A stretch of DNA of 64,000 nucleotides, from assembly GCA_973895155.1 (NCBI GenBank), contig OZ316897.1, positions 20,922,260 through 20,986,259 on the forward strand, given 5' to 3'. This document shows positions 486 to 42,127 of the stretch, in pieces; position 1 is the first letter of the stretch; each line of letters opens with the position of its first letter. The notes below the pieces were generated by a model. It had not been told where the DNA came from. It did no database searches and saw nothing but the letters and a program-made list of their open reading frames with translations. The DNA comes from Marsupella aquatica (lineage: Eukaryota; Plantae; Marchantiophyta). The translations under genes were made by a program, and so were the position numbers.

Positions 486-3400
486 CTAGTAAACTGTTGT
501 TAAATTAGCGTTGGTCACTATGCTAGGAAGTCCCGCCTCTAATCTACTTGGCTCATCTGAAGTTGCTTGCTGTGATTCTCCCAAGATTGAGTCATTCCCA
601 TCACTCGAGTTTGTCCCTTGACTCTTGAAACTACTATCCAAGCCCTGTACAAGTTTAATTACAGAACTTTGTTCGTCTGTCAGCTCCACACTAACACGTC
701 CTTCCAAAACTTTCTTAACTGTCCCAATCTCTGAAAAAGGATGTGAAGGACATTTCTCAACCTCTCCATCAGATGGAAAATCCACTTCTTTTTTTGTCTC
801 AACGTCTGGGGGCATTGAGCCTTCTCCCTTAATCCCCTTGGCATTTCCATCTTCCTTTGATCCATCAAAGTTTAGGAATTTCACACCATGTTCTTTTATG
901 AGAAACCGTCTATACAGACATGATGCACACATGCAGATGTCTATATTTTCTGAAAGCCCTAGACCTTTAAATAATGGTTCCGTCTCAACCTTCTCACAAG
1001 CCCTGTCATTAGAAGAAACATGCACCGGCCTTGTCTCCCCTAACATCACTCTATTACTCACCCTCAATTCTTGGTCTTGAAGCCCATGCCCCTTGAAGAA
1101 AGGCTCTCCTGTCTGGTCTCCCTCCTCCTTTGCGAGACCTCCCTTTTCTACTCCTTGTGCTTCAGGACTACCAAACGCTCCAACAACACGTTGCTCCCCA
1201 CCTAGCTCCTCTCCTCCGCCCCCAATTTCCATGCTTGCAAGGTCCTCTGCTGCTGGTGCCAATGCCTCCAAGGGCAGCTCAAATTCCCTCGGTGCGGTGG
1301 CAGGTGCTGCTTCCACTGCGGGCTCCTTGGGTGGAACCTCATCCTCCACCACGGGCTCCTTGGGAGCAGCCTCATCCTCCATCAGGGGTGCCACAGGCTC
1401 CTCAAGGATATCCTTTTGTTCCTGCTCAATCTCTGGTTCCCCTTCAAGTGGATCCACTGGGGCAGCCAACTTCTCCACGGCTGCTGGTTCCACCGCTGGT
1501 TCCTCCTTTGTAGGTTCTAGTTCTGGTGCTGCTCCTACAGACGTAGGTGTCACCTCTTCCTCTGTGGAGGGCACGGCAGGGCTGGGCTCCTCCTCCGCTG
1601 CAAGTTCCTCTGCTGCAGGTGGCAATGCCTCCAATGGGAGGTCAAATTCCCTGGTTGAGATAGCAGGTGCTGCTTCCACCGTGGGCTCCTTGGGAGCAAC
1701 CTCATCCTCCATCGGGGGTGCCACTGGCTCCTCAGGGACAGCCTTGAGCTCCTGCTCAACCTCTAGAGGTACCTCAAGTAGCTCCTCTGGGGCAGCCAAC
1801 TCCTCCACGGCTGCTGGTTCCTCCTTTGTGGGTTCAAGTTCAGGTGCTGCTCCTTCAGACGTAGGTCCCACCCCTTCCTCTGTAGAGGGCACGGCTGGGC
1901 TGGGCTCCTCCTCCGCTGCAAGGTCCTCTACTGCTGGTGGTGATGCCTCCAAGGGGAGCTCAAATTCCCTGGGTGCCGTGGCAGGTGCTGCTTCCACGGC
2001 GGGCTCCTTGGGAGCAACCTCATCCTCCACCACGGGCGCCACACGCTCCTCAGGGACGGCCTCAAGCTTCCGCTCAACTTCTAGAGGTACCTCAAGTCGC
2101 TCCTCCGGGGCAGCCAACTTCTCCACGGCTGCTGGTTCCTCCACCAAAGGGAGGTCAAATTCCCTCGTTGCAGGGGCTGGTGCTGCTTCCACCGCGGGCT
2201 CCTTGAAAGCAACCTCATCCTCCACCACGGGTGCCACAGGCTCCTCAGGGACAGCCTCATGCTCCTGCTCAACCTCTGGTGCCACCTCAACAGGCTCCTT
2301 CGGGGCAGCCAACTCCTCCACGGCTGCTGGTTCCTCCTTTGTGGGTTCTAGTTCTGGTGCTGCTCCTTCAGACGTAGGTGCCACCCCTTCCTCTGTGGAG
2401 GGCACGGCTGGGCTGGGCTCCTTCTCGGCTGCAAGGTCCTCTATTGCTGGTGGCAACGCCTCCAAGGGGAGCTCAAATACCCTGGTTGCAGTGGCTGGTG
2501 CTGCTTCCACTGCGGGCTCTTTGGGAGCAACCTCATCCTCCACCACGGGTGCCACAAGCTCCTCTTGGACAGCCTCATGGTCCTGCTCAACATCTGGTGC
2601 CACCTCAAGTGTCTCCTCCGGGGCAGCCAACTTCTCCAAGGGTGGTGGTTCCTCCTCTTTAGGTTCTAGTTCTGATGCAGCTTCTTCAGACGGAGGTCCC
2701 ACCTCTTCCTCTCTGGAGGGCACGGCTGGACTGGGCTCATCCTCCGCTGCACGGTCCTCTACTGCTGGTGATGATGCCTCCAAGAGGAGGTCAAATTCCC
2801 TGGTTGTGGTGGCAGGTGCTGCTTCCACCGCGGGCTCCTTGGGAGCAACCTCATCCTCCACCAAGGGCGCCAATGGCTCCTCTGGGACAGCCTCATGCTC
2901 CTGCTGAACCTCTGGTGCCACCTCAACTGGCTCCTCCGGGGTAGCCAGCTTCTCCACGGCTGCTGGTTCCTTGTCTGTGGGTACGAGTTCTGGTGCTGCA
3001 ACTTCAGACGTAGGTGCCACCTCTTGCACTGTTGAGGGCACGGCTGCGCTGGGCTCCTCCTTGACTGCAAGGTCCTCTGCTGCTGGTGGCAATGCCTGCA
3101 AGGGGACGTAGAATTCCCTGGTTGCGGTGGCAGCTGCTGTTTCCACCACGGGATCCTTGGGAGTAACCACATCTTCCACAAAGGGTGCCACTGGCTCCTC
3201 AAGGACAGCCTCATGCTCTGGCTCAACCTCTGGTCCCACCTCAACTGGCTCCTCTGGGGCAGCCAACTTCTCCACGGCTACTGGTTCCTCCTCTGTGGGT
3301 TCGAGTTCTGGTGCTGCTACTTCAGACGTAGGTGCCACCTCTTCCTCTCTTGAGGGCACGGCTGGAAAGGGCTCCTCCTCCGCTGCAAGGTCCTTTACTG

Positions 3401-6400
3401 CTGGTGATGATGCCTCCAAGGGGAGGTCAAATTCCCTGGTTGCGGTGGCAGGTACTCCTTCCACCGCGGGCTCCTCGGGAGCAACCTCATCCTCCACCAT
3501 GGGTGCCACTGGCTCCTCAGGGACAGCCTCATGCTCCTGCTCAACCTCTGGTGCCACTTCAACAGGCTCCTCCGGGGCAGCCAACTTCTCCACGGCTGTT
3601 GGTTCCTCCTCTGTAGGTTCTAGTTCTCTTGCTGCTACTTCAGACGTAGGTGCCACCTCTTCCTCTGAGGAGAGCACAGCTAGGCTGGGCTCCTCCTCCG
3701 CTGCAAGGTCCTCAGCTGCCGGTCCCGATGCCTCCAAGGGGAGGTCAAATTCCCTGGGTGCCGTGGCAGGTGCTGCTTCTACCGCGGGGTCCTTGGGAGC
3801 AACCTGATCCTCCACCACGGGTGCCACTGCCTCCTCAGGGACAGCCGCATGCTCCTGCTCAACCTCTGGGGCCACCTCAAGTGGCTCCTCATGGGCAGCC
3901 AACTTCTCCATGGCTGCTGGTTCCTCCTCCAAAGGGAAGGAAAATTCCCTCGTTGAGGGAGCTAGTGCTGCTTCCACCGTGGGCCCCTTGGGAGCAAATT
4001 CATCCTCCACCACGGGTGCCATTGGCTCCTCAGAGACAGCATCATGCTCCTGCTCAACCTCTTGTGCCACCTCAACAGGCTCCTCCGGGGCAGCCAACTT
4101 CTCCACGGCTGTTGGTTCCTCCTCTGTGGGTTCTAGTTCTGGTGATGCTACTTCAAACGTGGCTTCAACCTCTTCCTCTGTTGAGGGCAAAGCTAGGCAA
4201 GGCTCCTTCTTGGCTGCAAGGTCCTCTACTACTGGTGGCGATGCCTCCAAGGGGAGGTCAAATTCCCTGGTTGCGGTGGCAGGTACTCCTTCCACCGCGG
4301 GCTCCTCGGGAGCAACCTCATCCTCCACCACGGGTGCCACTGGCTCCTCAGGGACAGCCACATGCTCCTGCTCAACCTCTGGTGCCACTTCAACAGGCTC
4401 CTCCGGGGCAGCCAACTTCTCCACGGCTGTTGGTTCCTCCTCTGTAGGTTCTAGTTCTCTTGCTGCTACTTCAGACGTAGGTGCCACCTCTTCCTCTGAG
4501 GAGAGCACAGCTAGGCTGGGCTCCTCCTCCGCTGCAAGGTCCTCAGCTGCCGGTCCCGATGCCTCCAAGGGGAGGTCAAATTCCCTGGGTGCCGTGGCAG
4601 GTGCTGCTTCTACCGCGGGGTCCTTGGGAGCAACCTGATCCTCCACCACGGGTGCCACTGCCTCCTCAGGGACAGCCGCATGCTCCTGCTCAACCTCTGG
4701 GGCCACCTCAAGTGGCTCCTCATGGGCAGCCAACTTCTCCATGGCTGCTGGTTCCTCCTCCAAAGGGAGGGAAAATTCCCTCGTTGAGGGAGCTAGTGCT
4801 GCTTCCACCGTGGGCCCCTTGGGAGCAAATTCATCCTCCACCACGGGTGCCATTGGCTCCTCAGAGACAGCATCATGCTCCTGCTCAACCTCTTGTGCCA
4901 CCTCAACAGGCTCCTCCGGGGCAGCCAACTTCTCCACGGCTGTTGGTTCCTCCTCTGTGGGTTCTAGTTCTGGTGATGCTACTTCAAACGTGGCTTCAAC
5001 CTCTTCCTCTGTTGAGGGCAAAGCTAGGCAAGGCTCCTTCTTGGCTGCAAGGTCCTCTACTACTGGTGGCGATGCCTCCAAGGGGAGGTCAAATTCCCTG
5101 GTTGGGGTGGCAGGTGCTGTTTCCACCGCGGGCTCCTTGGGAGCAACCTCATCCTCCGCCACGGGTGCCACAAGCCCCTCCGCTGCAAGGTCCACTACTG
5201 CTGGTGATGATGCCTCCAAGAGGAGGTCAAATTCCCTGGTTGTGGTGGCAGGTGCTGCTTCCACCGCGGGCTCCTTCGGAGCAACCTCAACGTCCACCAC
5301 GGGTGCCACTGGCTCCTCAGGGACAGCGTGATGCTCCTGCTCAACCTGTGGTGCCACCTCAACTGGTTCCTCTGGGGCAGCCAACTTCTCCATGCCTACT
5401 GGTTCCTCCTCTGTGGGTTCTAGTTCTGGTGCTGCTACTTCAGACGTAGGTGCCACCTCTTCTTCTGAGGAGGGCACAGCTGGGCTGGGCTCCTCCTCCG
5501 CTGCAAGGTCCTCAGCTGCCGGTCCCGATGCCTCCAAGGGGAGGTCAAATTCCCTGGGTGCCGTGGCAGGTGCTGCTTCTACCACGGGGTCCTTGGGAGC
5601 AACCTGATCCTCCACCACGGGTGCCACTGCCTCCTCAGGGACAGCCGCATGCTCCTGCTCAACCTCTGGGGCTACCTCAAGTGGCTCCTCATGGGCAGCC
5701 AACTTCTCCATGGTTGCTGGTTCCTCCTCCAAAGGGAGGGAAAATTCCCTCGTTGAGGGAGCTAGTGCTGCTTCCACCGTGGGCTCCTTGGGAGCAAATT
5801 CATCCTCCACCACGGGTGCCATTGGCTCCTCAGAGACAGCATCATGCTCCTGCTCAACCTCTGGTGCCACCTCAACAGGCTCCTCCGGGGCAGCCAACTT
5901 CTCCACGGCTGTTGGTTCCTCCTCTGTGGGTTCTAGTTCTGGTGATGCTACTTCAAACGTGGCTTCAACCGCTTCGTCTGTTGAGGGCAAAGCTAGGCAA
6001 GGCTCCTTCTTGGCTGCAAGGTCCTCTACTACTGGTGGCGATGCCTCCAAGGGGAGGTCAAATTCCCTGGTTGCGGTGGCAGGTGCTGTTTCCACCTCGG
6101 GCTCCTTGGGAGCAACCTCATCCTCCGCCACGGGTGCCACAAGCCCCTCCGCTGCAAGGTCCTCTACTGCTGGTGATGATTCCTCCAAGAGGAGGTCAAA
6201 TTCCCTGGGTGCCGTGGCAGGTGCTGCTTCTACCACGGGGTCCTTGGGAGCAACCTGATCCTCCACCACGGGTGCCACTGCCTCCTCAGGGACAGCCGCA
6301 TGCTCCTGCTCAACCTCTGGGGCCACCTCAAGTGGCTCCTCATGGGCAGCCAACTTCTCCATGGTTGCTGGTTCCTCCTCCAAAGGGAGGGAAAATTCCC

Positions 6401-21400: not shown

Positions 21401-24400
21401 CGGCTGCTGGTTCCTCCTCCAAACGGAGGTCAAATTCCCTCATTGCTGGGGCTGGTGCTGCTTCCACCACGGGCACCTTGGGAGCAACCTCATCCTCCAC
21501 CACGGGTGCCACTGGCTCCTCAGGGACAGCCTCATGCTCCTGCTCAACCTGTGGTGCCACCTGAAGAGGCTCCTGTGGGGCAGCCAACTTCTCCGCGGCT
21601 GCTGGTTCCTCCTCCAAACGGAGGTCAAATTCCCTCGTTGCTAGGGCTGGTGCTGCTTCCACCACGGGCACCTTGTGAGGAACCTCATCCTCCACCACGG
21701 GTGCCACTTGCTCCTGAGGGACAGCCTCATGCTCCTGCTCAACCTCTGGTGCCACCTCAAGAGGCTCCTCCGGGGCAGCCAACTTCTCCACAACTGTTGG
21801 TTCCTCCTCTGTGGGTTCTAGTTCTGGTGATGCTACTTCAGACATGGGTGCAACCTCTTCCTCTATTGAGGGCACAACTGGGCTGGGCTCCTCCTCCGCT
21901 GCAAGGTCCTCAGCTGCTGGTCCCGATGCCTCCAAAGGGAGGTCAAATTCCCTGGTTGCCGTGGTAGGTGCTGCTTCTACCGCTGGGTCCTTGGGAGCAA
22001 CCTCATCCTCCACCACGGGTGCCACTGGCTCCTCAGGGACAGCCACATGCTCCTCCTCAACCTGTGGTGCCACCTCAAGTGGCTCCTCTGGGGAAGCCAA
22101 CTTCTCCACGGCTGCTGGTTCCTCCTCCAAAGGGAGGTCAAATTCCCTCGTTGCGGGGGCTGGTGTTGCTTCCACCGCGGGCTCCTTGGGAGCAGCCTCA
22201 TCCTCCACCATGGGTGCCACTGGCTCCTCAGGGACAGCCTCAGGCTCCTCCTCAACCCCTGGGGCCACCTCAACAGGCTCCTCCGGGGCAGCCAACTTCT
22301 CCACAGCTGTTGGTTCCTCCTCTGTGGGTTTGAGTTCTTGTGATGCTACTTCAGACGTGGGTGCCACCTCTTCCTCTGTTGAGGGCACAGCTAGGCTGGG
22401 CTCCTCCTCTGCTGCAAGGTCCTCAGCTGCTGGTCCTGATGCGTTCAAGGGGAGGTCAAATTCCCTGGTTGTGGTGGCAGGTGCTGTTTCCACCGGGGGC
22501 TCCTTGGGAGCAACCTCATCCTCCGCCACGGGTGCCACAAGCTCCTCGGGGACAGCCACATGCTCCTGGTCAACCTCTGGTGCCACCTCAAGTGGCTCCT
22601 GTGGGACAGGCAACTTCTCCACGGCTGCTGGTTCCTCCTCCAAAGGGAGGTCAAATTCCCTCGTTGCGGGGGCTGGTGCTGCTTCCACTGGGGGCTCCTT
22701 GCGAGCAACCTTATCCTCCATCACGGGTGCTACTGGCTCCTGAGGGACAGCCTCATGCTCCTGCTCAACCTCTGGTGCGACCTCAACTGGCTCCTCTGGG
22801 GCAGCCAACTGCTCCACGGCTACTGGTTCCTCCTGTGTGGGTTCTAGTTCTGGTTTTGTGAGTTCAGACGTAGGTGCCACCTCTTCCTCTGTTGAGGGCA
22901 CAGCTGGGCTGGGCTCCTCCTCCGCTGCAAGGTCCTCAGCTGCTGGTGGCGATGCCTCTAAGGGGAGGTCAAATTCCCTGGTTGCGGTGGCAGGTGCTGC
23001 TTCTACCGCGGGGTCCTTGGGAGGAACCTCATCCTCCACCACGGGTGCCACTGGCTCCTCTGGGACAGTCTCATGCTCCTGCTCAACCTTTGGTGCCACC
23101 TCAACAGGCTCCTCCGGGGTAGCGAACTTCTCCACGGTTGTTGGTTCCTGCTCCGTGGGTTCTAGTTCTGGTGATGCTACTTCAGACATGGGTGCAAACT
23201 CTTCCTCTGTTGAGGGCACACCTAGGCTGGGCTCCTTCTTGGCTGCAAGGTCCTCTGCTACTGGTGGCAATCCCTCCAAGGGGAGGTCAAATTCCCTGGT
23301 TGCGGTGGCAGGTGCTGTTTCCACCGTGGGGTCCTTGGGAGCAACGTCATCCTCCGCCACCGGTGCCACAAGCTCCTGTGGGACAGCCGCATGCTCCTGC
23401 TGAACCTTTGGTGCCACCTCAACTGGCTCCTCTAGGGCAGTGAACTTCTCCACGGGTGCTGGTTCCTCCTCCAAAGGGAGGTCAAATTCCCTCGTTGCGG
23501 GGGCTGCTGCTGCTTCCACCACGGGCTCCTTGGGAGCAACCTCATCCTCCACCAGAGGTGCCACTGGCTTCTCACGAACAGCCTCATGCTCCTGCTCAAC
23601 CTCTGGTGCCACCTCAACAGGCTCCTCCGAGGCAGCCAACTTCTCCACGGCTGTTGGTTCCTGCTCTGTGGGTTCTAGTTCTGGTGATGCTACTTCAGAC
23701 GTGGGTGCAACCTCTTCCTCTGTTGAGGGCACAGCTAGGGTGGGCTCCTTCTCGGCAGCAAGGTCCTCTGCTAGTGGTGGCGATGCCTGCAAGGGGAGGT
23801 CAAATTCCCTGGTTGCGGTGGCAGGTGCTGTTTCCATCGTGGGCTCCTTGGGAGCAACCTCATCCTCCGCCACGGGTGCCACAAGCTCCTCTGGGACAGC
23901 CACATGCTCCTGCTCAACCTCTGGTGCCACCTCAAGTGGTTCCTCTGGGGCAGCCAATTTCTCCACGGCTGCTGGTTCCTCCTCCAAAGGGAGGTCAAAT
24001 TCCCTCGTTGCGGGGGCTGGTGCTGCTTCCACCGCGGGTTCCTTGGGAGCAACCTCATCCTCCACCACGGGTGCCACTGGCTCCTCAGGGACAGCCTCAT
24101 GCTCCTGCTCAACCTCTGGTGCCACCTCAACAAGCTCCTCCGCGGCAGCCAACTTCTCCAGGGCTGTTGGTTCCTCCTCTATGGGTTCTAGTTTTGGTGT
24201 TGCTACTTCAGACGTGGGTGCCACCTCTTCCTCTGTTGAGGGCACAGCTAGGCTGGGCTCCTCCTCCGCTGCAAGGTCCTCAGCTGCTGGTCCTGATGCC
24301 TCGAAGGGGAGGTCAAATTCCCTGGTTGCCGTGGCAGGTGCTACCTCTGCAGGCTCCTTGGGAGCAACCTCATCCTCCACCACGGGTGCCACTGGCTCCT

Positions 24401-26114
24401 CTGGGACAGCCTCATGCTCCTGCTCAACTTCTGGTGCCACCTCAAGTGGGTCCTCCGGGGCAGCCAACTTCTCCACGGGTGCTGGTTCCTCCTGTGTGGG
24501 TTGTTGTTCTGGTGATGCTACTTCAGACGTAGGTGCCACCTCTTCCTCCGTGGACGGCACGGCCTGGCTGGGCTCCTCTTCCACTGCAAGGTCCTCTACT
24601 GCTGGTGGTGATGTCTGCAAGGGGAGGTGGAATGCCCTGGTTGCATTGGCCGGTGCTGCTTCCACCGTGGGGTGCTTGGGAGCAACCTCATCCTCTACCA
24701 CGGGTTTCACAGGCTCCTCTGGGAGAGCCTCATGCTCTTGCTCAACCTCTGGTGTTACCTCAAGTGGCTTGCCCGGGGTAGCGAACTTCTCCAGAACTGG
24801 TGGTTCCTGCTCTGTGGGTTCTAGTTCTGGGGCTGGTAATTCAGACATAGGTGCCACCTCTTTGTCCGTTGGGAGCTTGGCGGGGCTGGGCTCCTCCTGC
24901 CGTGGATGGTCCCGTGCTTTTGGTGCTGATGGGTCGAAGGGGAGCTGAAATTCCCTTGCTGCTCTGGCTGGTGCTTCTTCCATCACTGGATCCTTTGGAG
25001 CAACCTCATCCTTCATCACGGGTGCCACAGGCTCCTCGGGGACAGCTTCATGCTGGTGCTCAACCTCTGGTGGTACCTGAAGTTCCTCCTCTGGTGCACC
25101 CAACTTCTCTACTGCTGCTGGTTCCTCCTTTGTGGGCTGTAGTTCTGTTGGTACTATTTTAGACCCTAGGGACACCTCTTTGTCTGTTGGGAGCACAGCC
25201 GGGTTGGGCTCCTCCTCTACTTCAAGGTGGTTTGCTGCTGGTGGTGATGCGTCCAAGGGGAGCTCTGATTCCCTTGTTGCTGGGGCCGGTGCTGCTTCCA
25301 CTGCCGGTTGCTTTGGGGCAACCTCATCGTCCACTACAGGTGTCACCGGATCCTTGGGGACAGCATGGGGCTCATGCTCAACCTGTGGTGGTCCTTCAAG
25401 TGGCTCCTTTGGCACAGCCAACTTCTCCAGCGCTGATGGCTCCTCCTTTGCTGCCTCAAGTTCTGGTGTGGCAGCTTCTGACGGAGGTGCCACTTCTTCC
25501 TCTGCTGGTAGCAGAGCCTGGATGGGCTCTTCCTGCACTGCAAGGTCCAGGTCCTTTGCTGTTGGTGCAGATGCCTCCATGGGAAGTGCATATTCCCTAG
25601 TTGCTGGGGCTGCTTCCACCACCGGCTCCTTTTGAGCCACAGCAAGGTCCGATTCAGCGGGTGCTATGTCTTCTGAATTCTTGGGAGTATCCTGGTCGAT
25701 GACTGGGGCCTCTACTCTGTACACTGGCTGCTCTGGAAGAGCCCCGGGCTCATTCTGCACCGCTGGTGTTACCCCAAATGGTTTCTGAGGTGCAGTGTAG
25801 TCGGTTGCTTTCTGGGCCGTTGGTGTTGCAAGTTCTTTGAGTGTTTGTGTGTCGTTAGGCCGGGCTGGAGATGAATCGATTGGGTCTGCTATGTGGAGAG
25901 TGCCGTGTTTTCGCGAAGGTGGAGGCCTTTCCGCCTGAAGTGCTTTCGTTTTAGCTGCCTCGAATAGAGTACCAGCTTCTATCTCGTCGACAATTTGTTT
26001 GACAGATTTTTGGCGTTTGTATTCGATGTCTTGGGTCGCCGTGTTTTCTGATTCCAATGCTGTCGTCGAGTCCTTTGGAATTGCTATGTGCTGTCCCGGT
26101 TGTGCTGCAGGTGT
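486..26114 (-). CDS. Giant terminal coding exon (25,629 nt) of the repeat protein
   Basis: The stop-free 8,523-aa ORF in the track extends 19 codons upstream to the acceptor cccacag|ACA at 26114. All repeat indels preserve the frame. Confidence 0.9.
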   Translation of the reverse strand, partial: TPAAQPGQHIAIPKDSTTALESENTATQDIEYKRQKSVKQIVDEIEAGTLFEAAKTKALQAERPPPSRKHGTLHIADPIDSSPARPNDTQTLKELATPTAQKATDYTAPQKPFGVTPAVQNEPGALPEQPVYRVEAPVIDQDTPKNSEDIAPAESDLAVAQKEPVVEAAPATREYALPMEASAPTAKDLDLAVQEEPIQALLPAEEEVAPPSEAATPELEAAKEEPSALEKLAVPKEPLEGPPQVEHEPHAVPKDPVTPVVDDEVAPKQPAVEAAPAPATRESELPLDASPPAANHLEVEEEPNPAVLPTDKEVSLGSKIVPTELQPTKEEPAAVEKLGAPEEELQVPPEVEHQHEAVPEEPVAPVMKDEVAPKDPVMEEAPARAAREFQLPFDPSAPKARDHPRQEEPSPAKLPTDKEVAPMSELPAPELEPTEQEPPVLEKFATPGKPLEVTPEVEQEHEALPEEPVKPVVEDEVAPKHPTVEAAPANATRAFHLPLQTSPPAVEDLAVEEEPSQAVPSTEEEVAPTSEVASPEQQPTQEEPAPVEKLAAPEDPLEVAPEVEQEHEAVPEEPVAPVVEDEVAPKEPAEVAPATATREFDLPFEASGPAAEDLAAEEEPSLAVPSTEEEVAPTSEVATPKLEPIEEEPTALEKLAAAEELVEVAPEVEQEHEAVPEEPVAPVVEDEVAPKEPAVEAAPAPATREFDLPLEEEPAAVEKLAAPEEPLEVAPEVEQEHVAVPEELVAPVAEDEVAPKEPTMETAPATATREFDLPLQASPPLAEDLAAEKEPTLAVPSTEEEVAPTSEVASPELEPTEQEPTAVEKLAASEEPVEVAPEVEQEHEAVREKPVAPLVEDEVAPKEPVVEAAAAPATREFDLPLEEEPAPVEKFTALEEPVEVAPKVQQEHAAVPQELVAPVAEDDVAPKDPTVETAPATATREFDLPLEGLPPVAEDLAAKKEPSLGVPSTEEEFAPMSEVASPELEPTEQEPTTVEKFATPEEPVEVAPKVEQEHETVPEEPVAPVVEDEVPPKDPAVEAAPATATREFDLPLEASPPAAEDLAAEEEPSPAVPSTEEEVAPTSELTKPELEPTQEEPVAVEQLAAPEEPVEVAPEVEQEHEAVPQEPVAPVMEDKVARKEPPVEAAPAPATREFDLPLEEEPAAVEKLPVPQEPLEVAPEVDQEHVAVPEELVAPVAEDEVAPKEPPVETAPATTTREFDLPLNASGPAAEDLAAEEEPSLAVPSTEEEVAPTSEVASQELKPTEEEPTAVEKLAAPEEPVEVAPGVEEEPEAVPEEPVAPMVEDEAAPKEPAVEATPAPATREFDLPLEEEPAAVEKLASPEEPLEVAPQVEEEHVAVPEEPVAPVVEDEVAPKDPAVEAAPTTATREFDLPLEASGPAAEDLAAEEEPSPVVPSIEEEVAPMSEVASPELEPTEEEPTVVEKLAAPEEPLEVAPEVEQEHEAVPQEQVAPVVEDEVPHKVPVVEAAPALATREFDLRLEEEPAAAEKLAAPQEPLQVAPQVEQEHEAVPEEPVAPVVEDEVAPKVPVVEAAPAPAMREFDLRLEEEPAAVEKFAAPEEPVEVAPEVGKEDLAVLEDLVAPVAEDEVAPKEPAVETAPATATREFDLHLEASPPVVEDLAAKKQPSLGVPSIEEEVVPMSEVASPELEPTEEEPTPVEKLGAPEEPVQVAAEVEQEHEAVPEEPVAPVVEDEVAPKVPAVEAPPAPATREFDLPLEEEPAAVEKLASPEEPLELTPQVEEEHVAVPEEPMAPVVEDEVAPKDPAVEAAPTMATREFDLPLEASGPAAEDLAVEEEPSPAVPSIEEEVAPMSEVASPELKPSEEEPTAVEKLTGPEDPVEVAPEVEQEHEAVPEEPVAPMVEDEVAPKDPTVEAAPAPATREFDLPLEEEPAAVEKLAAPEEPVEVAPEVEQEHAAVQGELVAPVAEDEVAPKEPAVETGPTTATRKFDLHLEASPRVAEDLAAEKEPSLGWPSTEEEVAPMSEVASPELEPSEEEPIAVEKLTGPEDPVEVAPEVEQEHEAVLEEPVAPMVEDEVAPKDPAVEAAPAPATREFDLPLEEEPAAVEKLAAPKETVEVAPEVEQEHAAVQGELVAPVAENEVAPKEPTVETGPTTATREFDLHLEASPRVAEDLAAEKEPSLGWPSTKEEVAPMSEVASPELEPSEEEPTAVEKLAGLEDPVEVAPEVEHEDESVPEEAVAPVVEDEVAPKDPALEAAPALATREFELPLEVEPVAVEKLAVPQEPLEVAPEVDQEHVAVPEELVAPVAEDEVAPKEPAVETTLATATREFHLPLGASGPAAEELAAEEEPSLAVPSTEQEVASMSEVASQELKPTEEEPTAVEKLAAPEEPVEVAPEVEEEPEAVPEEPVAPVVEDEAAPKEPAVEEAQAPATREFDLPLVEEPAAVEKLAAPEEPLEVAPEVEQEHLAVPGELVAPVAEDEVAPKEPAVETAPATATREFDFPLQASPPVAEDLAAQKEPSLGLPSTEEEVEATSEVASPELEPTEEEPTVVEKLAAPEEPLEVAPEVEQEHEAVPEEPVAPVVEDEVPPKVPVMEATPALATREFDLRLEEEPAAAEKLAAPEQPLEVAPEVEQEHEAVPEEPVAPVVEDEAAPKEPAVEATQAPATREFDLPLVEEPAAVEKLAAPEEPLQVAPEVEQEHEAVPEEPVAPVVEDEVAPKVPVVEAAPAPATRQFDLRLDEEPAAMEKFAAPEEPVEVAPEVGKEDLAVLEDLVAPVAEDEVAPKEPAVETAPTTPTREFDLHLEASPPVAEDLAAKKQPSLGVPSTEEEVVPMSEVASPELEPTEEEPTPVEKLGAPEEPVQVAAEVEQEHEAVPEEPVAPVVEDQVAPKEPAVEAAPAASTRQFDLPLEEEPTAVEKLAAQEEPVEVALEVEQEDEAVPEERVAPVVEDEVAPKDPALERAPAMATKEFELPLDASGPAAQDLAVEEEPSPALPSTEEEVAPPSVLPAPKLEPREEEPVVMEKVGALEEPVEVVPEGEEEHEAVPEEPVGPVVEFEVAPKEPAVEAAPAPAPREFDLPSEEEPAAVEKLAAPEEPLEVAPEVEQEHEAVPEEPVAPMVEDEVAPKVPVVEVAPAPATREFDLRLEEEPAAVEKLAAPEEPLQVAPEVEQEHEAVPEEPMAPVVEDEVAPKVPVVEAAAARATRECDLRLEEEPAAVEKFAAPEEPVEVASEVEEVDLAVLEDLVAPVAEDEVAPKVPAVETVPATATREFDLHLEASPPVAEDLAAEKQPSLGVPSTEEEVVPMSEVASPELEPTEEEPTPVEKLATLEEPLEVAPQVEQEHEAFPEELVAPVVEGEVGPKVPVVETAPAPATREFDLRLEEEPAAVDKFAAPEEPVEVAPEVEQEDLAVLEDLVAPVAEDEVAPKEPAMETVPATATSEFDLHLEASPPVVEDLAAEKEPSLGVPSTEEEVAPMSEVASPELEPTEEEPTAVEKLGVPEDPVQVAPEVEQEHEAVPELPVAPVVEDDVAPQEPAVEAAAAPSTREFELPLEEELASVEKLAAPEEAVEVAPEVEQEHEAVPEEPVAPVVEDEVAQKVPAVEAAPAPATREFDLPLEEEPAAVEKLAAAEEPVEVALDVEQEHVAVPEEPLEVAPEVEQEHVDVPEEPVAPVVEDEVPPKNTAVEAAPATAIREFDLPLEASPPAVEKLAAPKEPLEVAPEVEQEHVAVLEEPVAPMVEDQVAPKEPAVEAARAAATRQFDLPLEEEPTAVEKLAAPEEPVEVALEVEQEDEAVPEEQVATVVEDEVAPKDPALEAAPATATKEFDLPLDASGPAAQDLAVEEEPNPALPSTEEEVAPMSVLPAPKLEPREEEPAAVEKLAAPEEPLEVAPEVEQEHDAIPEELLAPMLEKLAAPEEHEAVPEEQVSPVLEDEVAPKDPTVEAAPARATREFHLPLEASGPAAKDLAAEEEPSPAVPSTEEEMAPTSELAAPELQPTEEEPTDVEKLAAPEKPVEVAPEVEQEHVPQEPLAPVVEKLAAPQEPVEVAPEVEHEDAAVPEELVAPVAEEKVAPKEPMVETAPATATREFDLPLEASPPVAEDLAAEQEPNLVVPSKEEEVAPTPEVASPKLKPTEEELTALEKLAAPKEPLEVAPEVEQEHVAVTEELVALVAEDDVAPKEPGVETVPATTTREFDLPLEPSPPVAEDLAAQKEPSLALPSREEEVQAASEVASPELEPTEEEPTAVEKLAAPEEPVEVAREVEQEHEAVPEEPMAPVVEDQVAPKVPAVEAAPAPATREFVLPLEVEPAAVEKLAAPEEPLEVAPQVEQEHEAIPEELVAPVLEKLAAPEEPVEVAPEVEHEDAAVPEGLVAPVAEDEVAPKEPEVETTLATATREFDLPLEASPPVAEDLAAEKEPSLAMPSTEEEVAPMSEVASPELEPTEEEPTAVENLATPEEPLEVAPEVEQGHEAVPEEQVAPVVEDEVARKQPAVEEAPAPATRECDLPLEEEPAAVEKLAALEEPLEVAPEVEQEHEAIPEELVAPVLDKLAAPEEPVEVAPEVEHEDAAVPEGLVAPVAEDEVAPKEPEVETAPATATREFDLPLEASPPVAEDLAPEKEPSLAVPSTEEEVAPMSEVGSLELEPTEEEPTALEKSAAPEEPVEVAPAVEQEHEAVREEQVAPVVEDEVAPNDPAVEAAPATATREFDLPLEASGPAAEDLAAKEEPSPAVPSTQEEMAPTSELAAPEPEPTEEEPVAVENLAALEPVQVVPEVEQEHEAVPEEPVAPVVEDEVAPKEPAVEATPAPATREFELPLEEEPAAVEKLAAPEEPLEVAPEVEQEHAAVPEELVAPGGEDKVAPKEPAVETAPAPATREFDLPLEASPPVAEDLAAEKEPSLAVPSKEEDVAPTPEVASPELGPTEEEPTALEKLAAPEEPVEVATEVEQEHEAVPEEEVAPVLEDEVAPKDPAVEAASAMATREFDLPLEASGPAAEDLAAEEKPSPAVPSTQEEMAPTSELAAPELEPTEEEVVAVEKSATLEQPVEVVPEVEHEHEAVPEEPMAPVVEDEVAPKEPAVEAAPAPATREFDLPLEVEPAAVEKLAAPEEPLEVAPQVEQEHEAIPEELVAPVLEKLAAPEEPVEVAPEVEHDDAAVPEGLVAPVAEDEVAPKEPEVETALATATREFDLPLEASPPVAEDLAAEKEPSLAMPSTEEEVAPMSEVASPELEPTEEEPTAVENLATPEEPLEVAPEVEQGHEAVPEEQVAPVVEDEVARKQPAVEEAPAAGTREFDLPLEEEPAAVEKLAALEEPLEVAPKVEQEHEAIPEELVAPVLDKLAAPEEPVEVAPEVEHEDAAVPEGLVAPVAEDEVAPKEPEVETAPATATREFDLPLEASGPAAEDVAAEEKPSPAVPSTQEEMAPTSELAAPELEPTEEEVVAVEKSATLEQPVEVVPEVEHEHEAVPKEPMALVVEYEVAPKEPAVEAAPAPATREFDLPLEEEPAAVEKLAAPKEPLEVAPEVEQEHVAVSQELVALVAEDEVAPKEPGVEISPATATREFDLPLQASPPVAENLAAKKEPSLALPSTEEEVKATSEVASPELGPTEEEPTAMEKLAASEKPVEVAPEVEQEHVPQEPVAPVVEKLAAAQEPVEVAREVEYEDAAVPEELVAPVPEDEVAPKELTVETAPATATREFDLPLEASPPVAEDLAAKQEPSLVVPSKEEDVAPTPEGASPELEPTEEEPTALEKSAIPEEPVEVGAEVKQEHEAVLEDPVAPVVEDEVAPKVPAVEAAPAPATREFDLPLEEEPPAVEKLADQEEPLEVAPEVEQEHVAVPQELVALVAEDEVAPKQPGVETAPATATREFDLPLEAVGPAIEDLAAEKEPSPAVPSTEEEMAPTSELAAPDLQPTEQEPTDVEKLAALEEPVEVLPEVEHEHEAVPKEPMAPVVEDEVAPKEPAVEAAPAPATREFDLPLEEEPAAVEKLAAREEPLEVGPEVEQEHEAIPEELVAPVLEKLAAPEEPLEVAPEVEHEDAAVPEGIVAPVAEDEVAPKEPVVETTPATATREFDLHLEASPTVAEDLVAEKEPSLAVPSTEEEVAPMSEVASPKLEPTEEEPTAVEKLAAPEEPVEVAPEVEQGHEAVREEQVAPVVEDEVAPKHPAVEAAPATATREFDLPLEASGPAAEDLAGEEDPSPTVPSTEEEVAPTSELAAPELEPTQEEPVAVEKVAALEEPVEVVPVVQQEHDAVPEEPVAPVVEDQVARKEPAVEKAPAPATREFDLPLEEEPAAVEKLAAPEVPLDLAPEVEQEHEAIPEELVAPVLEKLAAPEEPVEVAPEVEHEDAAVPEGLVAPVAEDEVAPKEPAVETAPATPTREFDLPLEASPPVAEDLAAEKEPSLGVPSTKKEVAPMSEVASPELEPTEEEPTAVEKLAAPEEPVEVAPEVEQEHEAVLEEPVAFVGEDEVAPKDPAVEAAPATATREFDLPLEASGPEAEDLAAEEKPIPAVPSKEEQVAPTSELAAPELEPTEEEPVGMEKLAAPEEPVEVAPEVEQEHEAVPEEPVAPVVEDEVAPKEPAVEAALAPSTREFSLPLEEEPATMEKLAAHEEPLEVAPEVEQEHAAVPEEAVAPVVEDQVAPKDPVVEAAPATAPREFDLLLEESSPAVEDLAAEGLVAPVAEDEVAPKEPEVETAPATATREFDLPLEASPPVVEDLAAKKEPCLALPSTDEAVEATFEVASPELEPTEEEPTAVEKLAAPEEPVEVAPEVEQEHDAVSEEPMAPVVEDEFAPKEPTVEAALAPSTREFSLPLEEEPATMEKLAAHEEPLEVAPEVEQEHAAVPEEAVAPVVEDQVAPKDPVVEAAPATAPREFDLPLEASGPAAEDLAAEEEPSPAVPSSEEEVAPTSEVAAPELEPTEEEPVGMEKLAAPEEPVEVAPQVEQEHHAVPEEPVAPVVDVEVAPKEPAVEAAPATTTREFDLLLEASSPAVVDLAAEGLVAPVAEDEVAPKEPAVETAPATPTREFDLPLEASPPVVEDLAAKKEPCLALPSTEEEVEATFEVASPELEPTEEEPTAVEKLAAPEEPVEVAQEVEQEHDAVSEEPMAPVVEDEFAPKGPTVEAALAPSTREFSLPLEEEPAAMEKLAAHEEPLEVAPEVEQEHAAVPEEAVAPVVEDQVAPKDPAVEAAPATAPREFDLPLEASGPAAEDLAAEEEPSLAVLSSEEEVAPTSEVAARELEPTEEEPTAVEKLAAPEEPVEVAPEVEQEHVAVPEEPVAPVVEDEVAPEEPAVEGVPATATREFDLPLEASPPVVEDLAAKKEPCLALPSTEEEVEATFEVASPELEPTEEEPTAVEKLAAPEEPVEVAQEVEQEHDAVSEEPMAPVVEDEFAPKGPTVEAALAPSTREFSFPLEEEPAAMEKLAAHEEPLEVAPEVEQEHAAVPEEAVAPVVEDQVAPKDPAVEAAPATAPREFDLPLEASGPAAEDLAAEEEPSLAVLSSEEEVAPTSEVAARELEPTEEEPTAVEKLAAPEEPVEVAPEVEQEHEAVPEEPVAPMVEDEVAPEEPAVEGVPATATREFDLPLEASSPAVKDLAAEEEPFPAVPSREEEVAPTSEVAAPELEPTEEEPVAVEKLAAPEEPVEVGPEVEPEHEAVLEEPVAPFVEDVVTPKDPVVETAAATATREFYVPLQALPPAAEDLAVKEEPSAAVPSTVQEVAPTSEVAAPELVPTDKEPAAVEKLATPEEPVEVAPEVQQEHEAVPEEPLAPLVEDEVAPKEPAVEAAPATTTREFDLLLEASSPAVEDRAAEDEPSPAVPSREEEVGPPSEEAASELEPKEEEPPPLEKLAAPEETLEVAPDVEQDHEAVQEELVAPVVEDEVAPKEPAVEAAPATATRVFELPLEALPPAIEDLAAEKEPSPAVPSTEEGVAPTSEGAAPELEPTKEEPAAVEELAAPKEPVEVAPEVEQEHEAVPEEPVAPVVEDEVAFKEPAVEAAPAPATREFDLPLVEEPAAVEKLAAPEERLEVPLEVERKLEAVPEERVAPVVEDEVAPKEPAVEAAPATAPREFELPLEASPPAVEDLAAEEEPSPAVPSTEEGVGPTSEGAAPELEPTKEEPAAVEELAAPEELLEVPLEVEQELKAVPEEPVAPPMEDEVAPKEPTVEAAPAISTREFDLPLEALPPAAEELAAEEEPSPAVPSTEEEVTPTSVGAAPELEPTKEEPAVEPAAVEKLAAPVDPLEGEPEIEQEQKDILEEPVAPLMEDEAAPKEPVVEDEVPPKEPAVEAAPATAPREFELPLEALAPAAEDLASMEIGGGGEELGGEQRVVGAFGSPEAQGVEKGGLAKEEGDQTGEPFFKGHGLQDQELRVSNRVMLGETRPVHVSSNDRACEKVETEPLFKGLGLSENIDICMCASCLYRRFLIKEHGVKFLNFDGSKEDGNAKGIKGEGSMPPDVETKKEVDFPSDGEVEKCPSHPFSEIGTVKKVLEGRVSVELTDEQSSVIKLVQGLDSSFKSQGTNSSDGNDSILGESQQATSDEPSRLEAGLPSIVTNANLTTVY

Positions 26115-29100
26115 CTGTGGGGTGCACAGTACAGGAGTTAATCAACAGGGTGATGCAATTGAATGGGATTAATATTTCCGTAACTAGGATAACTAGACGG
26201 CGAGTTGTAGGAACCAAACGGACATTCGCTTGGTTTTGATTTGTTTTTCAGCTTCGTATGCCCAATTGTGTCTCGTGAGACCACCTTGTTCATGGTAGGA
26301 CCTTGCAATTCAAGTAAAAGAGAAAGAACGAGCAGCCGTATCGTGAGAAGGTTTCCTACCTAATCAGAGAAGGTTTCATATTTTCAGCTAGGCTTTTTTT
26401 AAATGTTTATAGATCATTTTTTTACCCGCTGCGTTGCTGCTTTGTCAACCAAGTTACAGCTATACTAATCTGTTTCCAATAACTTGACCTACAGACCAGA
26501 AATTTCAATCAATTTGGACAGAGACATGGAACAATGTCGATCCAGTTAGGTTCTTCAATTCATCAAAAGGTAAAGACACAAGTTCAGTGCTCAAGAGTAC
26601 TTGTGGTAGGGGTTAAGACTCTTATTGCTTAGCAATTGGCCGCAAGTTGCAATCAACGAAAACTACAGGAGGCAGGAAGATCTGCGATTGTCGGATCATG
26701 CACGAGGCACGAGAGAAACAGTCTTGCGTATACATTCGTGATAGCAACAGATCGAACGAGAATCCTGTCGTTCAATCATCACCTGGTGACGAACGGTGCT
26801 GTACTACTGGATTCAGTTATTTCAAAAAGTTAACAAGCACTCAACCAAGGGCAATGCTCAGTTAAGTTTCACGCTAATTATTTCTGCAGTTTTCTGAATT
26901 CAAGTTTCACCATCCTATGCATTACCGCTACTTTCTGCACAACTTGAGATAATATTTTATTAGCTTTGTACGAGTTTTCAAGGAATTCGATTACGTGTTT
27001 CTCATATTTTATATCATTTCCATCTCCGTTACGGCTCTAATTTTCAACTAGTAAGATGTATTGGAAGAGCTGGGTTAATATCATGTGAAGCGGCTTTTGG
27101 GAAGCTTTCACCTGACGTTTTTTCTTTGTTGAGATGAATGCTGAAGCTAAATACCTCATAGACTTCTTTGGTCGTGGTGGGCGTAAATTGCGGACGACCC
27201 TCCTCGTCAACTGCTGCTTGAATTTCACCGGCAGAGTCGACAATCTCAGGTTGGCTGGTTTCACTGATCTGTGGAGATGGTGATCTGGGCGTCGTTCTCT
27301 CATCTTCGGGGCCCCTGATGATTTCAAAATCACCACTGCCTGTAGAATCCGATCTTGAGCTGATAGAAGCTGGTTTGGCGACCTTGAGCTCCGTAGCCAG
27401 AGGTTCTTCTCGTGCAGTGTATCCCTCTCTCTGATACGAAACGAACGAAAGAATGATTGGTTAGAACAGTTAGAAGCCTATAAGCATGCTTACATGATTT
27501 TCATCAAAATTCATTTCATTTCCGTTTCGAAGGTCAGATTAACGTAAAGCTGGGGCTTCGAAGGCGAATGTCACGTACTTGGAAACCTTGTAGTAAAACA
27601 AGAGCTAAAATCTTAATTTACTAAATCAAAAATCGAGAAATGAAATCCAGAGTTCAAATACGTTACGAGCCAGAAGAATCATGCTGCCCTAAATTTCAAT
27701 CCTTAAGATCGTATGAGATCGCAAAAGTGTGCAGTTGAGAATATCTTGACAAGCAAGACGCCCGGTCCTCACTTCACATCTTCGACTTCCAATGACTCGA
27801 CCAGCCATTCCTGAAAAAGAAGCATGAATGAGACATGACTTGGGATCTGAATTCTGGTCTTACTCGCAGAAGGGTTGCTGGGCTCAAGGACCCGGAAGTC
27901 GCTTCTGATTCATCGGAAATTTCATGACCTAAAGTTCCTTCCTTCTTGTCGACTGGAAGTACTCGCTTCAGAGTTCCAATTTCTCTGTTCGCCGCATCAG
28001 TTGGAGAAATTCTGGATGCCGAATTATCCAACGCCACCTTCTTCTCAGCTTCTGTATCCAGTACCTTCAACTCTTGTTGAGCTGTGAAGGACTCCGATTT
28101 ACCTTTCTTCGAGGCTGCCTGGAGCGCGGATCGAGGGCTACGAGTGACCAGTTCCCAATTCTCACCTAGCTCAACAAAAGCTTTCATAGTCTCATGTTCC
28201 TTTGCTTCCAGGTCCTTCTTTGAGTCCACTTTACTAAGGTCTGCTTGTCGCAATGCCACTGGGGTATCTGGAATAACAACAGCAGCCGAAGACGGTGACA
28301 CATTGAACGGCTCGACGGGGACTGCTTCCTTGCCGACCTTTTGGCTGAAAGACGGTCGAAGAGTTGGGATTGGAGAATCTTTGGCGCTTCTGCTACGAGG
28401 CAGCATAGACGAGCTGCTCAATCTTAATCTGGAACGAGCTTGAAAGCTCGATTGTTCGCGTTCAGATCCAAATGCAGGCGGAGATGTGCCCGAGCTCGAA
28501 TCCTTGGATGGACTAAAGACGGGCGATTCATATCTAGACGACACCGGTGACTTTGTAGCAGGAGTGGCAGGCACAGAAGAGGGTCCAAGTTCCTCTGAAG
28601 CATCGTGAAACGTTTCAGCTCCTTCATCGTGTAGTTGAGAGGATGCAGGCGCTGTTTCGGTTGATGATTTCGAGCCCAGCCCTGTTCCCTTCAAATTTCT
28701 TTTCCTTAACAGACCAGACGATTCTGAAGAGGACTCTCCCGAGTGGAACGCTCCTTCCTGTTCGAAGACACCAACGTCTTCCAGCTACAATGCAGAATAC
28801 ACAAGACCGAACGACGAACGACAAAGATTAGAAGATGGTCATAATTTAATTTATGAACACATTACATGCATATTCTAGACAGACCGTATGTTTGACCTTT
28901 CAACATCGATCAGTTTAGGCATGCTCTTTCCTGTCTCTCTCTGAAGCTCAATGTGGTGGAACTGACGGTACGAAGGAACATTCCAAACATAAATTTCTGC
29001 CCATTGGAATTTTTGTGTTCAAGATGGAACAAGATAACATTTCATAGATCCATCACAAGCTGAATTACTGGAAGCAAGTGACGATTCTAAGGGATCCGAA

Positions 29101-29805
29101 CTGTAGAGATTTAGACTGCCACTTCGATACAAATTCCAAGAAATTCCTCAATTCTGGGATTCCTTTCATTTTACATACAGACGGTGTGGTAAAGCTCCAA
29201 CAACTTAGTTGTAGAGAAGTTTGATTCTCAGATAATCTTCTTCCAGACTACGCATTTGAATAATTATTAGCCTTTGGATGCATGCGCAAGACACGTGCGT
29301 GTCAAATCATCACAAATAGTTCTAACGTACAAAGCAAGAACTTCGGGACAGTACATAGCTGTTGACAGCTTCGACTTTTTGATTGATTTGGTTGATTTGA
29401 CTAGCGCTTTAGTTTCTGGTATCCATTGATGATTAATGGCCATGGTACTTGCATTCTGGAAGAGAACTAAGTCGGAGTGGCCCGACAACTCTTTCGTTCT
29501 ATTTCGTTGAGATCTGAAGGTGCAGAGCCTTCAGTTGTTGATTCACAGTGCTCGTCAACTAAACTTCACCAATTATACAGAGTTCATTTACTGATGGGAA
29601 GTGACCGATGAGGAATTAAAACTTCTGAAGGAAATTGCTTGATTAGAGATACATCAAACTGATCGCCTACCTTGTCTTTGGATGGCTGAGTAGACGGCGT
29701 GGGATCCCTGACTGAAGAAGATCTTGGTGTCGACGGCTTACTACCTCGAACGTGGAAAGAGGAGTCCGTGTCGGTCCGCTCGAGTTTGCTCGAGCATTTC
29801 CCCAT
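486..29805 (-). CDS. Giant (~8,986 aa) acidic Glu/Pro/Ala/Val-rich repeat protein with N-terminal MGxCxSK acylation motif; 4 coding exons
   Basis: Exons 29805-29671 (45 aa), 28784-27864 (307 aa), 27430-27155 (92 aa) and 26114-486 (8,542 aa + TAG). Junctions AAG|gtaggc..ttgtag|CTG, CGA|gtaaga..tatcag|AGA and GAG|gtattt..ccacag|ACA are all phase 0 and give one continuous reading frame. Confidence 0.8.
1250..25620 (-). repeat. Coding tandem array of 195-nt (65 aa) and 318-nt (106 aa) units with an occasional extra 96-nt (32 aa) module; core motif TREFDLPLE
   Basis: Motif spacing of 195 nt (16743 vs 16938). Higher-order offsets of 513 (=195+318), 831 (=195+2x318), 2364 and 3468 nt were checked directly in the sequence. 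Confidence 0.97.
27155..27430 (-). CDS. Exon 3 of giant protein (REGYTAREEPL...TTKEVYE)
   Basis: Pyrimidine tract + tatcag acceptor, open 92-codon frame, GAG|gtattt donor. Confidence 0.75.
27864..28784 (-). CDS. Exon 2 of giant protein (Ser/Pro-rich disordered head)
   Basis: Overlaps most of the 306-aa track ORF in the same frame; ttgtag acceptor and CGA|gtaaga donor; 921 nt. Confidence 0.8.
29671..29805 (-). CDS. First coding exon of giant protein, MGKCSSK...
   Basis: ATG at 29805, MG-x-C-x-S-K motif, AAG|gtaggc donor at 29670. Confidence 0.75.
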
Positions 29806-29876
29806 CTTGGGAGGATGATTTTTGAGTACTAGATGATATTAAATGCAGTAACAAAGAGATCACGAACCCAAATTCT

Positions 29877-42001: not shown

Positions 42002-42127
42002 ATCTACAAGTTTTCATATGCTAGATACTAACTTCCTCTGTAATTTCTCCTTACTATGGTAATTGATTGTAAGTAGTGGAATTCAGTTGACGGAAGTTAG
42101 ACAGTACGCCTGCCAACAATTCGAACT

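What the first reader, a model, noticed from the sequence alone, without database searches (positions are those of the whole stretch)
486..29805. A ~9,000-aa membrane-anchored, PEVK/calphotin-like giant protein in a plant genome
Seen: four in-phase exons give ~8,986 aa, of which ~8,100 aa are E/P/A/V repeats almost free of Trp, Tyr, Cys and Asn. The 25.6-kb exon has no stop or frameshift despite many substitutions and indels, which points to purifying selection. Known: MG-x-C-x-S-K N-termini are typical of N-myristoylated plus S-acylated plant membrane proteins. Pro/Glu-rich disordered chains act as entropic springs (titin PEVK) or Ca2+ buffers (Drosophila calphotin, plant PCaP/DREPP proteins). 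Inference: this is a lipid-anchored, strongly acidic disordered polymer with a contour length of about 3 micrometres (~0.36 nm per residue). It could serve as an elastic tether, spacer or cation sponge. I know of no described plant protein with this architecture.
Basis: partly seen in the sequence, partly recalled or inferred. Interest (0 to 1): 0.93.

Follow-up and report, generated by a model that had tools for sequence, protein, structure and literature searches.

The report
Giant acidic floppy plant protein gene
This stretch holds an unbroken 25.6-kb reading frame of 88 acidic repeats in which stop mutations are absent while amino-acid changes are common, so it likely encodes a roughly 9,000-residue floppy plant protein, predicted to be lipid-anchored and likely acting as a spacer on a membrane, similar in size and charge to unstudied giants already predicted in other plants.

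Summary
Four minus-strand exons with phase-0 GT-AG introns give 8,986 aa (953 kDa, pI 4.05). About 8,000 aa are 88 diverged E/A/P/V repeats. The frame is under selection: 0 of 39 possible stop alleles appear among 73 aligned units, against 70 of 165 in the other five frames. Amino-acid changes are nearly neutral (dN/dS 0.77-0.89). A related organism's copy has only in-frame indels in coding parts (3 of 3 listed, against 2 of 19 in non-coding parts), and a paralogue looks decayed. No RNA data were available, so splicing and expression are unshown. No homologue or Pfam domain was found, but proteins over 4,697 aa were outside the word searches. The claim of no plant precedent is too strong: predicted acidic giants of the same size and pI are catalogued in Sphagnum (9,126 aa, pI 4.05), Selaginella, pomegranate and cotton, and small myristoylated PEVK-rich PCaP2 is known. 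Best reading (0.45): a predicted myristoylated/S-acylated polyanionic entropic spacer, selected for an open frame rather than for sequence. It is not titin, calphotin or DREPP by membership. The 3 µm figure is contour length; a relaxed coil would span about 50-110 nm.

The parts
29785..29805 (-). Start codon and predicted N-myristoylation (Gly2) / S-acylation (Cys4) motif, with Ser6 and Lys7
   Evidence: Sequence. In-frame stop 12 codons upstream. The motif's meaning is recalled, not from a call.
29671..29805 (-). Exon 1, 45 codons, S/T/P-rich; residues 2-30 hold 6 K/R and 3 D/E
   Evidence: also present in a paralogue contig (X1 record 2)
28785..29670 (-). Intron 1 (886 nt, phase 0, GT-AG)
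   Evidence: listed indels of 5, 1, 1 and 3 nt in the organism B copy
27864..28784 (-). Exon 2, 307 codons, Ser-rich and low in complexity, with short amphipathic patches; symmetric (0-0); no counterpart laid in the paralogue contig
   Evidence: table 5 (joint 27458-29121)
27431..27863 (-). Intron 2 (433 nt, phase 0)
   Evidence: a contig of run X3 skips 27694-27785, which removes a rival donor at 27777
27155..27430 (-). Exon 3, 92 codons, S/E/P-rich
   Evidence: a second frame is also open here, so the frame is inferred
26115..27154 (-). Intron 3 (1,040 nt, phase 0)
   Evidence: listed indels of 4, 1 and 1 nt in the organism B copy
486..26114 (-). Exon 4, 25,629 nt, a single stop-free exon
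25281..26114 (-). Unique start of exon 4 (278 codons) with one amphipathic patch and a degenerate first repeat
   Evidence: 6-nt in-frame deletion in the organism B copy
1296..25280 (-). Tandem array, 7,995 codons, 88 units built from a 106-aa long form and a 65-aa short form (the long form minus 41 aa); net charge about -1,800
486..1295 (-). Last partial repeat and unique tail of about 250 aa with a CxCxxC stretch; no CaaX end, no transmembrane segment
   Evidence: indels of 3 and 15 nt in the organism B copy
29910..29985 (-). Candidate 5' UTR exon piece shared with the paralogue, next to an acceptor-like site
   Evidence: tables 5 and 7; inferred

Best explanation
The gene likely encodes a ~950-kDa disordered, strongly acidic chain that is predicted to hang from the cytosolic face of a membrane by a myristate plus an S-acyl group and would act as an entropic spacer or brush, whose size and charge matter more than its sequence. 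Shown: an open 25.6-kb frame, stop alleles purged, near-neutral amino-acid change, no hydrophobic segment. Inferred: splicing of the head to the array, expression and lipidation. Also inferred: the chain forms a swollen coil of about 30-40 nm radius (50-110 nm end to end; 2.9-3.2 µm only if fully stretched) that keeps membranes, organelles or cytoskeleton apart, and salt, pH or Ca2+ would shrink or swell it by screening about 2,200 carboxylates. The array grew by in-frame duplication of 65- and 106-residue modules. The CG/CHG mutation footprint suggests it is methylated like a repeat, which would fit restricted, stage-specific expression (inference).
For: Stop alleles: 0 of 39 in the coding frame against 70 of 165 in the five other frames, Fisher p 9e-9. 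Missense alleles appear as often as synonymous ones (transitions 106/207 vs 56/110; transversions 174/467 vs 45/131); dN/dS is 0.77 over all pairs and 0.89 for nearest neighbours. Organism B copy: 3 of 3 listed coding indels are multiples of 3, against 2 of 19 listed non-coding ones, p 0.006; 0 stops among 27 listed changed codons. The paralogue gains a stop in the modelled frame of exon 3 and lacks exon 2, while this copy is intact. No globular fold is predicted for the unit and no hydrophobic segment is present. Mean allele frequency is lower for loss of Pro (0.012), loss of one negative or gain of one positive charge (0.014) and changes in the REFDLPL motif (0.009) than for synonymous change (0.030) (not corrected for mutation type). 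Predicted proteins of 7,200-11,200 aa with pI 3.9-4.2 recur in Sphagnum, Selaginella, Punica and Gossypium (PMC6681478 section 5). PCaP1 is anchored by Gly2 myristoylation plus a basic cluster (PMC8457133 passage).
Against: No transcript or protein evidence was obtained. The junctions are modelled, and many alternative GT-AG choices keep the frame. Composition is only weakly policed: charge-reversing acid-to-base alleles were seen at 21 of 28 opportunities. Head and tail also change fast (tail 15 missense to 7 synonymous codons among listed rows), so no conserved functional module was found. The indel and substitution tables were cut by the tool (16 + 17 indel rows and 234 + 46 substitution rows not shown). 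The start motif was not verified in organism B. An open frame shows selection against truncation, not a function for length.
Confidence: 0.45

Rival explanations
1. The function sits in the head and/or tail, and the array is a tolerated coding minisatellite that expanded by unequal crossover. It stays stop-free only because a premature stop would remove the tail or trigger nonsense-mediated decay through a long 3' UTR (plant NMD rule, recalled).
For: Near-neutral dN/dS of 0.77-0.89; nested recent duplications, with nearest-neighbour identity up to 99.7%; a repeat-like CG/CHG mutation footprint; tail indels in frame in organism B.
Against: A 27-kb mRNA and a 953-kDa product are costly (inference). 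Giants of the same size and pI recur in distant plants. Losses of Pro and of charge are rarer than synonymous changes (uncorrected).
Confidence: 0.25
2. A membrane-bound cation or Ca2+ sponge, or a stress-protective polymer, working like calphotin, radish RVCaB or PCaP2 at 50 times the size.
For: 2,204 acidic against 393 basic residues in the array; pI 4.05. PCaP2 is a possibly myristoylated PEVK-rich Ca2+ binder (PMC4838777 passages). RVCaB is described as a disordered cryoprotective Ca2+ binder (reference title in PMC10358736). The A/P/V/E composition resembles calphotin (recalled).
Against: A buffer does not need one giant chain. No VEEKK motif and no DREPP or EF-hand Pfam hit. Acid-to-base changes are tolerated.
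Confidence: 0.15
3. A two-ended elastic tether or ruler like titin: the head is on a membrane, the tail binds a distant structure, and the array is stretched under load.
For: Unique sequence at both ends; the tail is kept in frame in organism B; Pro/Glu-rich extended chain; P+E+V+K = 56%.
Against: No folded or known binding domain in the tail (mean pLDDT 34.7 from a single sequence; no Pfam hit at cutoff). The tail evolves fast. A 9-residue motif shared by head and tail is within chance: 229 of 1,000 shuffles reach the best head-tail score. No PPAK motif.
Confidence: 0.1
4. The array is not translated, or it is an assembly artefact or a recent pseudogene.
For: No expression data are in hand, and no piece listed or 28 spans the array.
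Against: Stop alleles are purged only in one frame. No two of the 73 compared units are identical. Both ends match X1 contigs exactly, and repeat-derived contigs pile up on the last unit in all four runs laid.
Confidence: 0.05

Closest known systems
Uncharacterised giant acidic 'titin-like/unknown' predicted plant proteins: Sphagnum fallax Sphfalx0133s0012.1 (9,126 aa, pI 4.05), Selaginella XP_002985373.1 (8,462 aa, pI 4.02), Punica PKI66547.1 (11,234 aa, pI 3.87), Gossypium XP_017639830.1 (7,209 aa, pI 4.21), Marchantia OAE35580.1 (7,651 aa, pI 4.83) (PMC6681478 section 5)
   Same: Size class and very low pI; no known function; listed only as gene predictions (the accessions occur in this one paper).
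   Different: Homology is untested: their sequences were not in hand and they exceed the length range. Whether they carry a myristoylation start or regular repeats is unknown to me. Here there is direct evidence of selection on the frame.
PCaP1/PCaP2 (DREPP family; PCaP2 has a PEVK-rich domain)
   Same: Gly2 myristoylation-type start followed by a hydrophilic acidic Pro/Glu/Val-rich chain.
   Different: PCaP2 is an 18-kDa protein. No DREPP Pfam hit, no VEEKK motif, little Lys.
Arabidopsis RBB1 (At5g40450)
   Same: Very large plant-specific protein (2,890 aa; relatives up to 3,715 aa) without known domains; it affects vacuolar membrane shape (PMC4411111 section 15).
   Different: RBB1 relatives share a 75-aa C-terminal region. 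The tail here found no relative among proteins of 30-4,697 aa (a weak word search). This protein is three times longer.
Titin PEVK segment
   Same: Pro/Glu/Val-rich disordered repeats able to act as an entropic chain (recalled).
   Different: No Ig/Fn3 or kinase domains, no PPAK motif, Lys 3.4% and Ala 17%.
Drosophila calphotin
   Same: Composition dominated by Ala, Pro, Val and Glu (recalled; one search listed no calphotin paper).
   Different: About ten times shorter and not built with a lipid-anchor start (recalled); no sequence hit.
Plasmodium Pf11.1
   Same: Megadalton Glu-rich repeat protein of sexual stages (PMC11737873 passages).
   Different: Its repeats are of the EE-xx-EE type; that pattern occurs 0 times here. 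The organism is unrelated.

Membership tests
DREPP/PCaP | DREPP domain (Pfam) | tested here: not met
   No Pfam hit on exons 1-3, start of exon 4, repeats or tail
DREPP/PCaP | Gly2 myristoylation motif with nearby basic residues | tested here: inconclusive
   Gly2/Cys4/Ser6/Lys7 present; 6 K/R against 3 D/E in residues 2-30, so not strongly polybasic. Modification untested.
DREPP/PCaP | VEEKK motifs (recalled for PCaP2) | tested here: not met
   0 occurrences
DREPP/PCaP | Ca2+, calmodulin and phosphoinositide binding | not testable with these tools
   needs biochemistry
Titin | Ig/Fn3 arrays and kinase domain | tested here: not met
   No Pfam hit (the array was sampled, not scanned whole); no PDB hit with the repeat profile
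Titin | PEVK segment with PPAK repeats (recalled) | tested here: not met
   PPAK 0; P+E+V+K 56%; K 3.4%
Titin | Entropic elasticity under load | not testable with these tools
   needs AFM or tweezers
Calphotin | Sequence homology | tested here: not met
   0 hits at E <= 0.001 among 1.84 billion representatives with the first 300 aa of exon 4
RBB1 family | Conserved ~75-aa C-terminal region | tested here: inconclusive
   Tail word search: 0 of 4,697 candidates scored. RBB1's sequence was not in hand for a direct comparison.
Giant acidic 'titin-like' predicted plant proteins (a descriptive class) | >7,000 aa, pI about 4, no known domain | tested here: met
   8,986 aa, pI 4.05, no Pfam hit compared with the list
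Giant acidic 'titin-like' predicted plant proteins (a descriptive class) | Common ancestry with the Sphagnum, Selaginella or Marchantia giants | not tested
   Sequences could not be fetched; word searches stopped at 4,697 aa

The most novel reading that the evidence does not exclude
Land plants repeatedly build megadalton, lipid-anchored, acidic disordered polymers that act as titin-scale elastic tethers or membrane spacers inside cells. This gene and the unstudied Sphagnum, Selaginella, Marchantia, cotton and pomegranate giants would be one overlooked class of cytomechanical element, with array length setting a cellular distance.
Probability: 0.2. Interest if true: 0.9.

Novelty: new variant of a known kind. 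Interest (0 to 1): 0.6.

Why it matters
Predicted acidic giants in plant proteomes are often set aside as 'titin-like' or unknown; the six accessions I searched appear in only one cataloguing paper. This locus gives quantitative evidence that such a giant frame is kept open by selection while its sequence drifts, which is the expected signature of a physical polymer function. At 953 kDa it would rank fifth among the land-plant proteins named in that paper's list. If the lipid anchor and expression are confirmed, it gives a testable model for how plant cells use very long charged disordered chains at membranes.

Tried and rejected
No whole genome is held for this window. No RNA holder was listed among 5 runs; this is no evidence on expression. 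All laid runs were contigs that keep the introns. Word searches found no homologue for exon 2 (537-2,000 aa), the first 450 aa of exon 4 (30-4,697 aa) or the tail (30-4,697 aa). HMMER over 1.84 billion representatives with the first 300 aa of exon 4 gave 0 hits. Metagenome scans with the repeat alignment (372 pattern matches) and exon 2 (191) confirmed none. The ESM Atlas gave no usable hit for exon 2 and only scores of 0.80 or less for the array. The PDB profile search gave 0 hits. The tail fold from a single sequence was uninformative, so no fold search was run. Pfam on 264 ORFs of 52 aa or more in 30-64 kb gave two sub-cutoff hits, HTH_5 and IFT57; I saw no further IFT57-like exons on reading the region and rejected it as a lineage marker. 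Rfam found nothing in 26-64 kb. The head/tail 9-residue motif (E 0.012) was rejected by shuffling. The CHG excess could not be confirmed at synonymous sites (only 3 sites, p 0.25). Paper searches for a described plant protein of this architecture listed none; the library lacks most subscription papers. Two of three supplements of PMC6681478 were seen only as search rows. No complex prediction was run because no partner is proposed.
Full report
Observation. The minus strand carries one stop-free frame of 8,551 codons, 26141 to 489. Exons 29805-29671, 28784-27864, 27430-27155 and 26114-486 give 8,986 aa, 953 kDa, pI 4.05. All introns are phase 0, GT-AG and 39-40% GC, against 50-55% in the head exons. 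Many other splice choices also keep the frame, and exon 3 has a second open frame, so the junctions are a model. Two things favour it: a contig of run X3 deletes a rival exon-2 donor, and the GC steps fall at the modelled borders.

Anatomy. The head (722 aa) is Ser/Glu/Pro-rich with a few amphipathic patches. The array has 88 units, mostly a 106-aa long form (43) and a 65-aa short form (30) that lacks 41 residues. It is E 24%, A 17%, P 16%, V 13% and K 3%, with W 2, Y 4, C 5 and N 13, and holds 2,204 acidic and 393 basic residues. The tail (about 250 aa) has a CxCxxC stretch and no CaaX end. No 19-residue window exceeds hydropathy 1.3. The start has Gly2, Cys4, Ser6 and Lys7, which fits the myristoylation plus S-acylation pattern as I recall it. 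An in-frame stop lies 12 codons upstream.

Real, and selected? I compared the 73 of 88 units that are exactly 106 or 65 aa; the other 15 were left out. Mean identity is 86.5%, none of 2,628 pairs is identical, and the longest exact repeat in the array is 408 nt. This argues against an assembler loop. Among single-base neighbours of the majority codons, missense alleles were seen as often as synonymous ones (51% vs 51% of transitions, 37% vs 34% of transversions). Stop alleles were 0 of 39, where 11-14 were expected. In the other five frames 70 of 165 stop alleles were seen (p 9e-9). dN/dS is 0.77-0.89. Selection therefore guards the frame and hardly the sequence. Mean allele frequencies hint at weak selection for Pro, for negative charge and for the REFDLPL motif, but acid-to-base alleles are common (21 of 28), and these figures are not corrected for mutation type.

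Other genomes. Five runs hold the head, and none is on record as RNA. X1 matches both ends exactly and may be the assembly's source. X3 and X4 (organism B) hold an identical copy and a copy diverged by several per cent at similar depth; X5 shows only diverged pieces. In the diverged copy the listed coding indels are 6, 3 and 15 nt, while only 2 of 19 listed non-coding indels are multiples of 3 (p 0.006; 33 indel rows were not shown). Listed codon changes were 19 missense, 8 synonymous and 0 stop (280 rows not shown). The diverged copy runs on into repeats, but its array length is unknown. A paralogous contig of X1 shares exon 1, parts of intron 1 and exon 3, and has no laid counterpart of exon 2. 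It carries a stop in the modelled frame and another in the next frame, so it is likely a decayed partial duplicate.

Is it a plant? This is not shown directly, since no neighbouring gene was identifiable. Transition alleles in the array rank CG 0.106 > CHG 0.064 > CHH 0.028 (CHG vs CHH p 6e-7). CWG is lower in three of four CpG-poor patches than in the flanks. CHG methylation is a plant trait (recalled). The synonymous-only test had 3 CHG sites and was not significant.

Structure. AlphaFold on a 43-unit alignment gave pLDDT 68 and pTM 0.14, and listed no helix or strand (DSSP returned nothing), which fits an extended non-globular chain. The tail alone was uninformative. Polymer estimates from recalled scaling laws give a contour length of 2.9-3.2 µm, a radius of gyration of 28-42 nm and an end-to-end distance of 50-110 nm.

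Homologues. None were found by word search, HMMER, Pfam, PDB, metagenome scans or the ESM Atlas. The word searches excluded proteins over 4,697 aa, and HMMER saw only 300 aa of exon 4, so kinship with other giants is open.

Mechanism. I commit to a lipid-anchored polyanionic entropic spacer or brush (0.45). The rivals are a tolerated neutral expansion kept open by the tail or by NMD (0.25), a cation sponge (0.15), a two-ended spring (0.10) and an untranslated or artefactual array (0.05). Open frame, purged stops, composition and lack of hydrophobic segments are shown. Splicing, expression, lipidation, location and role are inferred.

Comparison with what is known. PMC6681478 (passages, section 5 part 1 and supplement search rows) lists predicted acidic giants in Sphagnum (9,126 aa, pI 4.05), Selaginella (8,462 aa, pI 4.02), Punica (11,234 aa, pI 3.87), Gossypium (7,209 aa, pI 4.21) and Marchantia (7,651 aa, pI 4.83). 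Their accessions occur in no other paper of the library. PCaP1 and PCaP2 show the myristoyl-plus-acidic-chain design in miniature (passages of PMC4838777 and PMC8457133). RBB1 is a 2,890-aa plant-specific protein that affects vacuole shape (PMC4411111 passages and section 15). Pf11.1 is a megadalton Glu-rich repeat protein (PMC11737873 passages). RVCaB was seen only as a reference title. Titin PEVK and calphotin features are recalled. Membership in DREPP, titin or calphotin fails on tested features. Searches listed no paper describing a lipid-anchored plant giant of this kind.

Verdict. This is a real, selected, very likely translated giant repeat gene, less unprecedented than first thought. 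It is a new variant of a known but unstudied kind, with no expression evidence yet. Interest 0.6.

Noticed in passing
window 32004-37039 and 39675-43692: A local duplication of about 4.5 kb at 75-83% identity with many gaps; no Pfam hit above cutoff and no Rfam hit. It may be a non-coding or short-exon gene pair.
   Followed up: partly
run X1 record 2, matching window 26998-29985: A single-copy-depth paralogue of the head, lacking exon 2 and carrying a stop in exon 3. Some loose-end repeat variants differ from the window's array by 3-5 of 18 letters, hinting at a second, diverged array elsewhere.
   Followed up: partly
runs X3 and X4: These runs hold both a window-identical copy and a diverged copy at about equal depth, as a hybrid, an allopolyploid or a mixed sample would.
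   Followed up: no
window 27957-27983 and 705-731: A similar 9-residue motif lies once in exon 2 and once in the tail, with different synonymous codons; it is not significant against shuffles.
   Followed up: yes
window 37000-39600, 44000-48000, 58300-59000, 63100-64000: CpG-poor, AT-richer patches; the first two hold inverted-repeat pairs (39066-39362 with 45861-46156; 44995-45312 with 47010-47316). Likely methylated transposon remnants.
   Followed up: no
window 1-96: Contigs pile up here at high depth in all four runs laid: the edge of a multi-copy element 3' of the gene.
   Followed up: no
window 26114 to 1296: CpG observed/expected falls from 1.1 in exon 1 to 0.31 in the array: an unmethylated 5' end and a methylated body are inferred.
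   Followed up: partly
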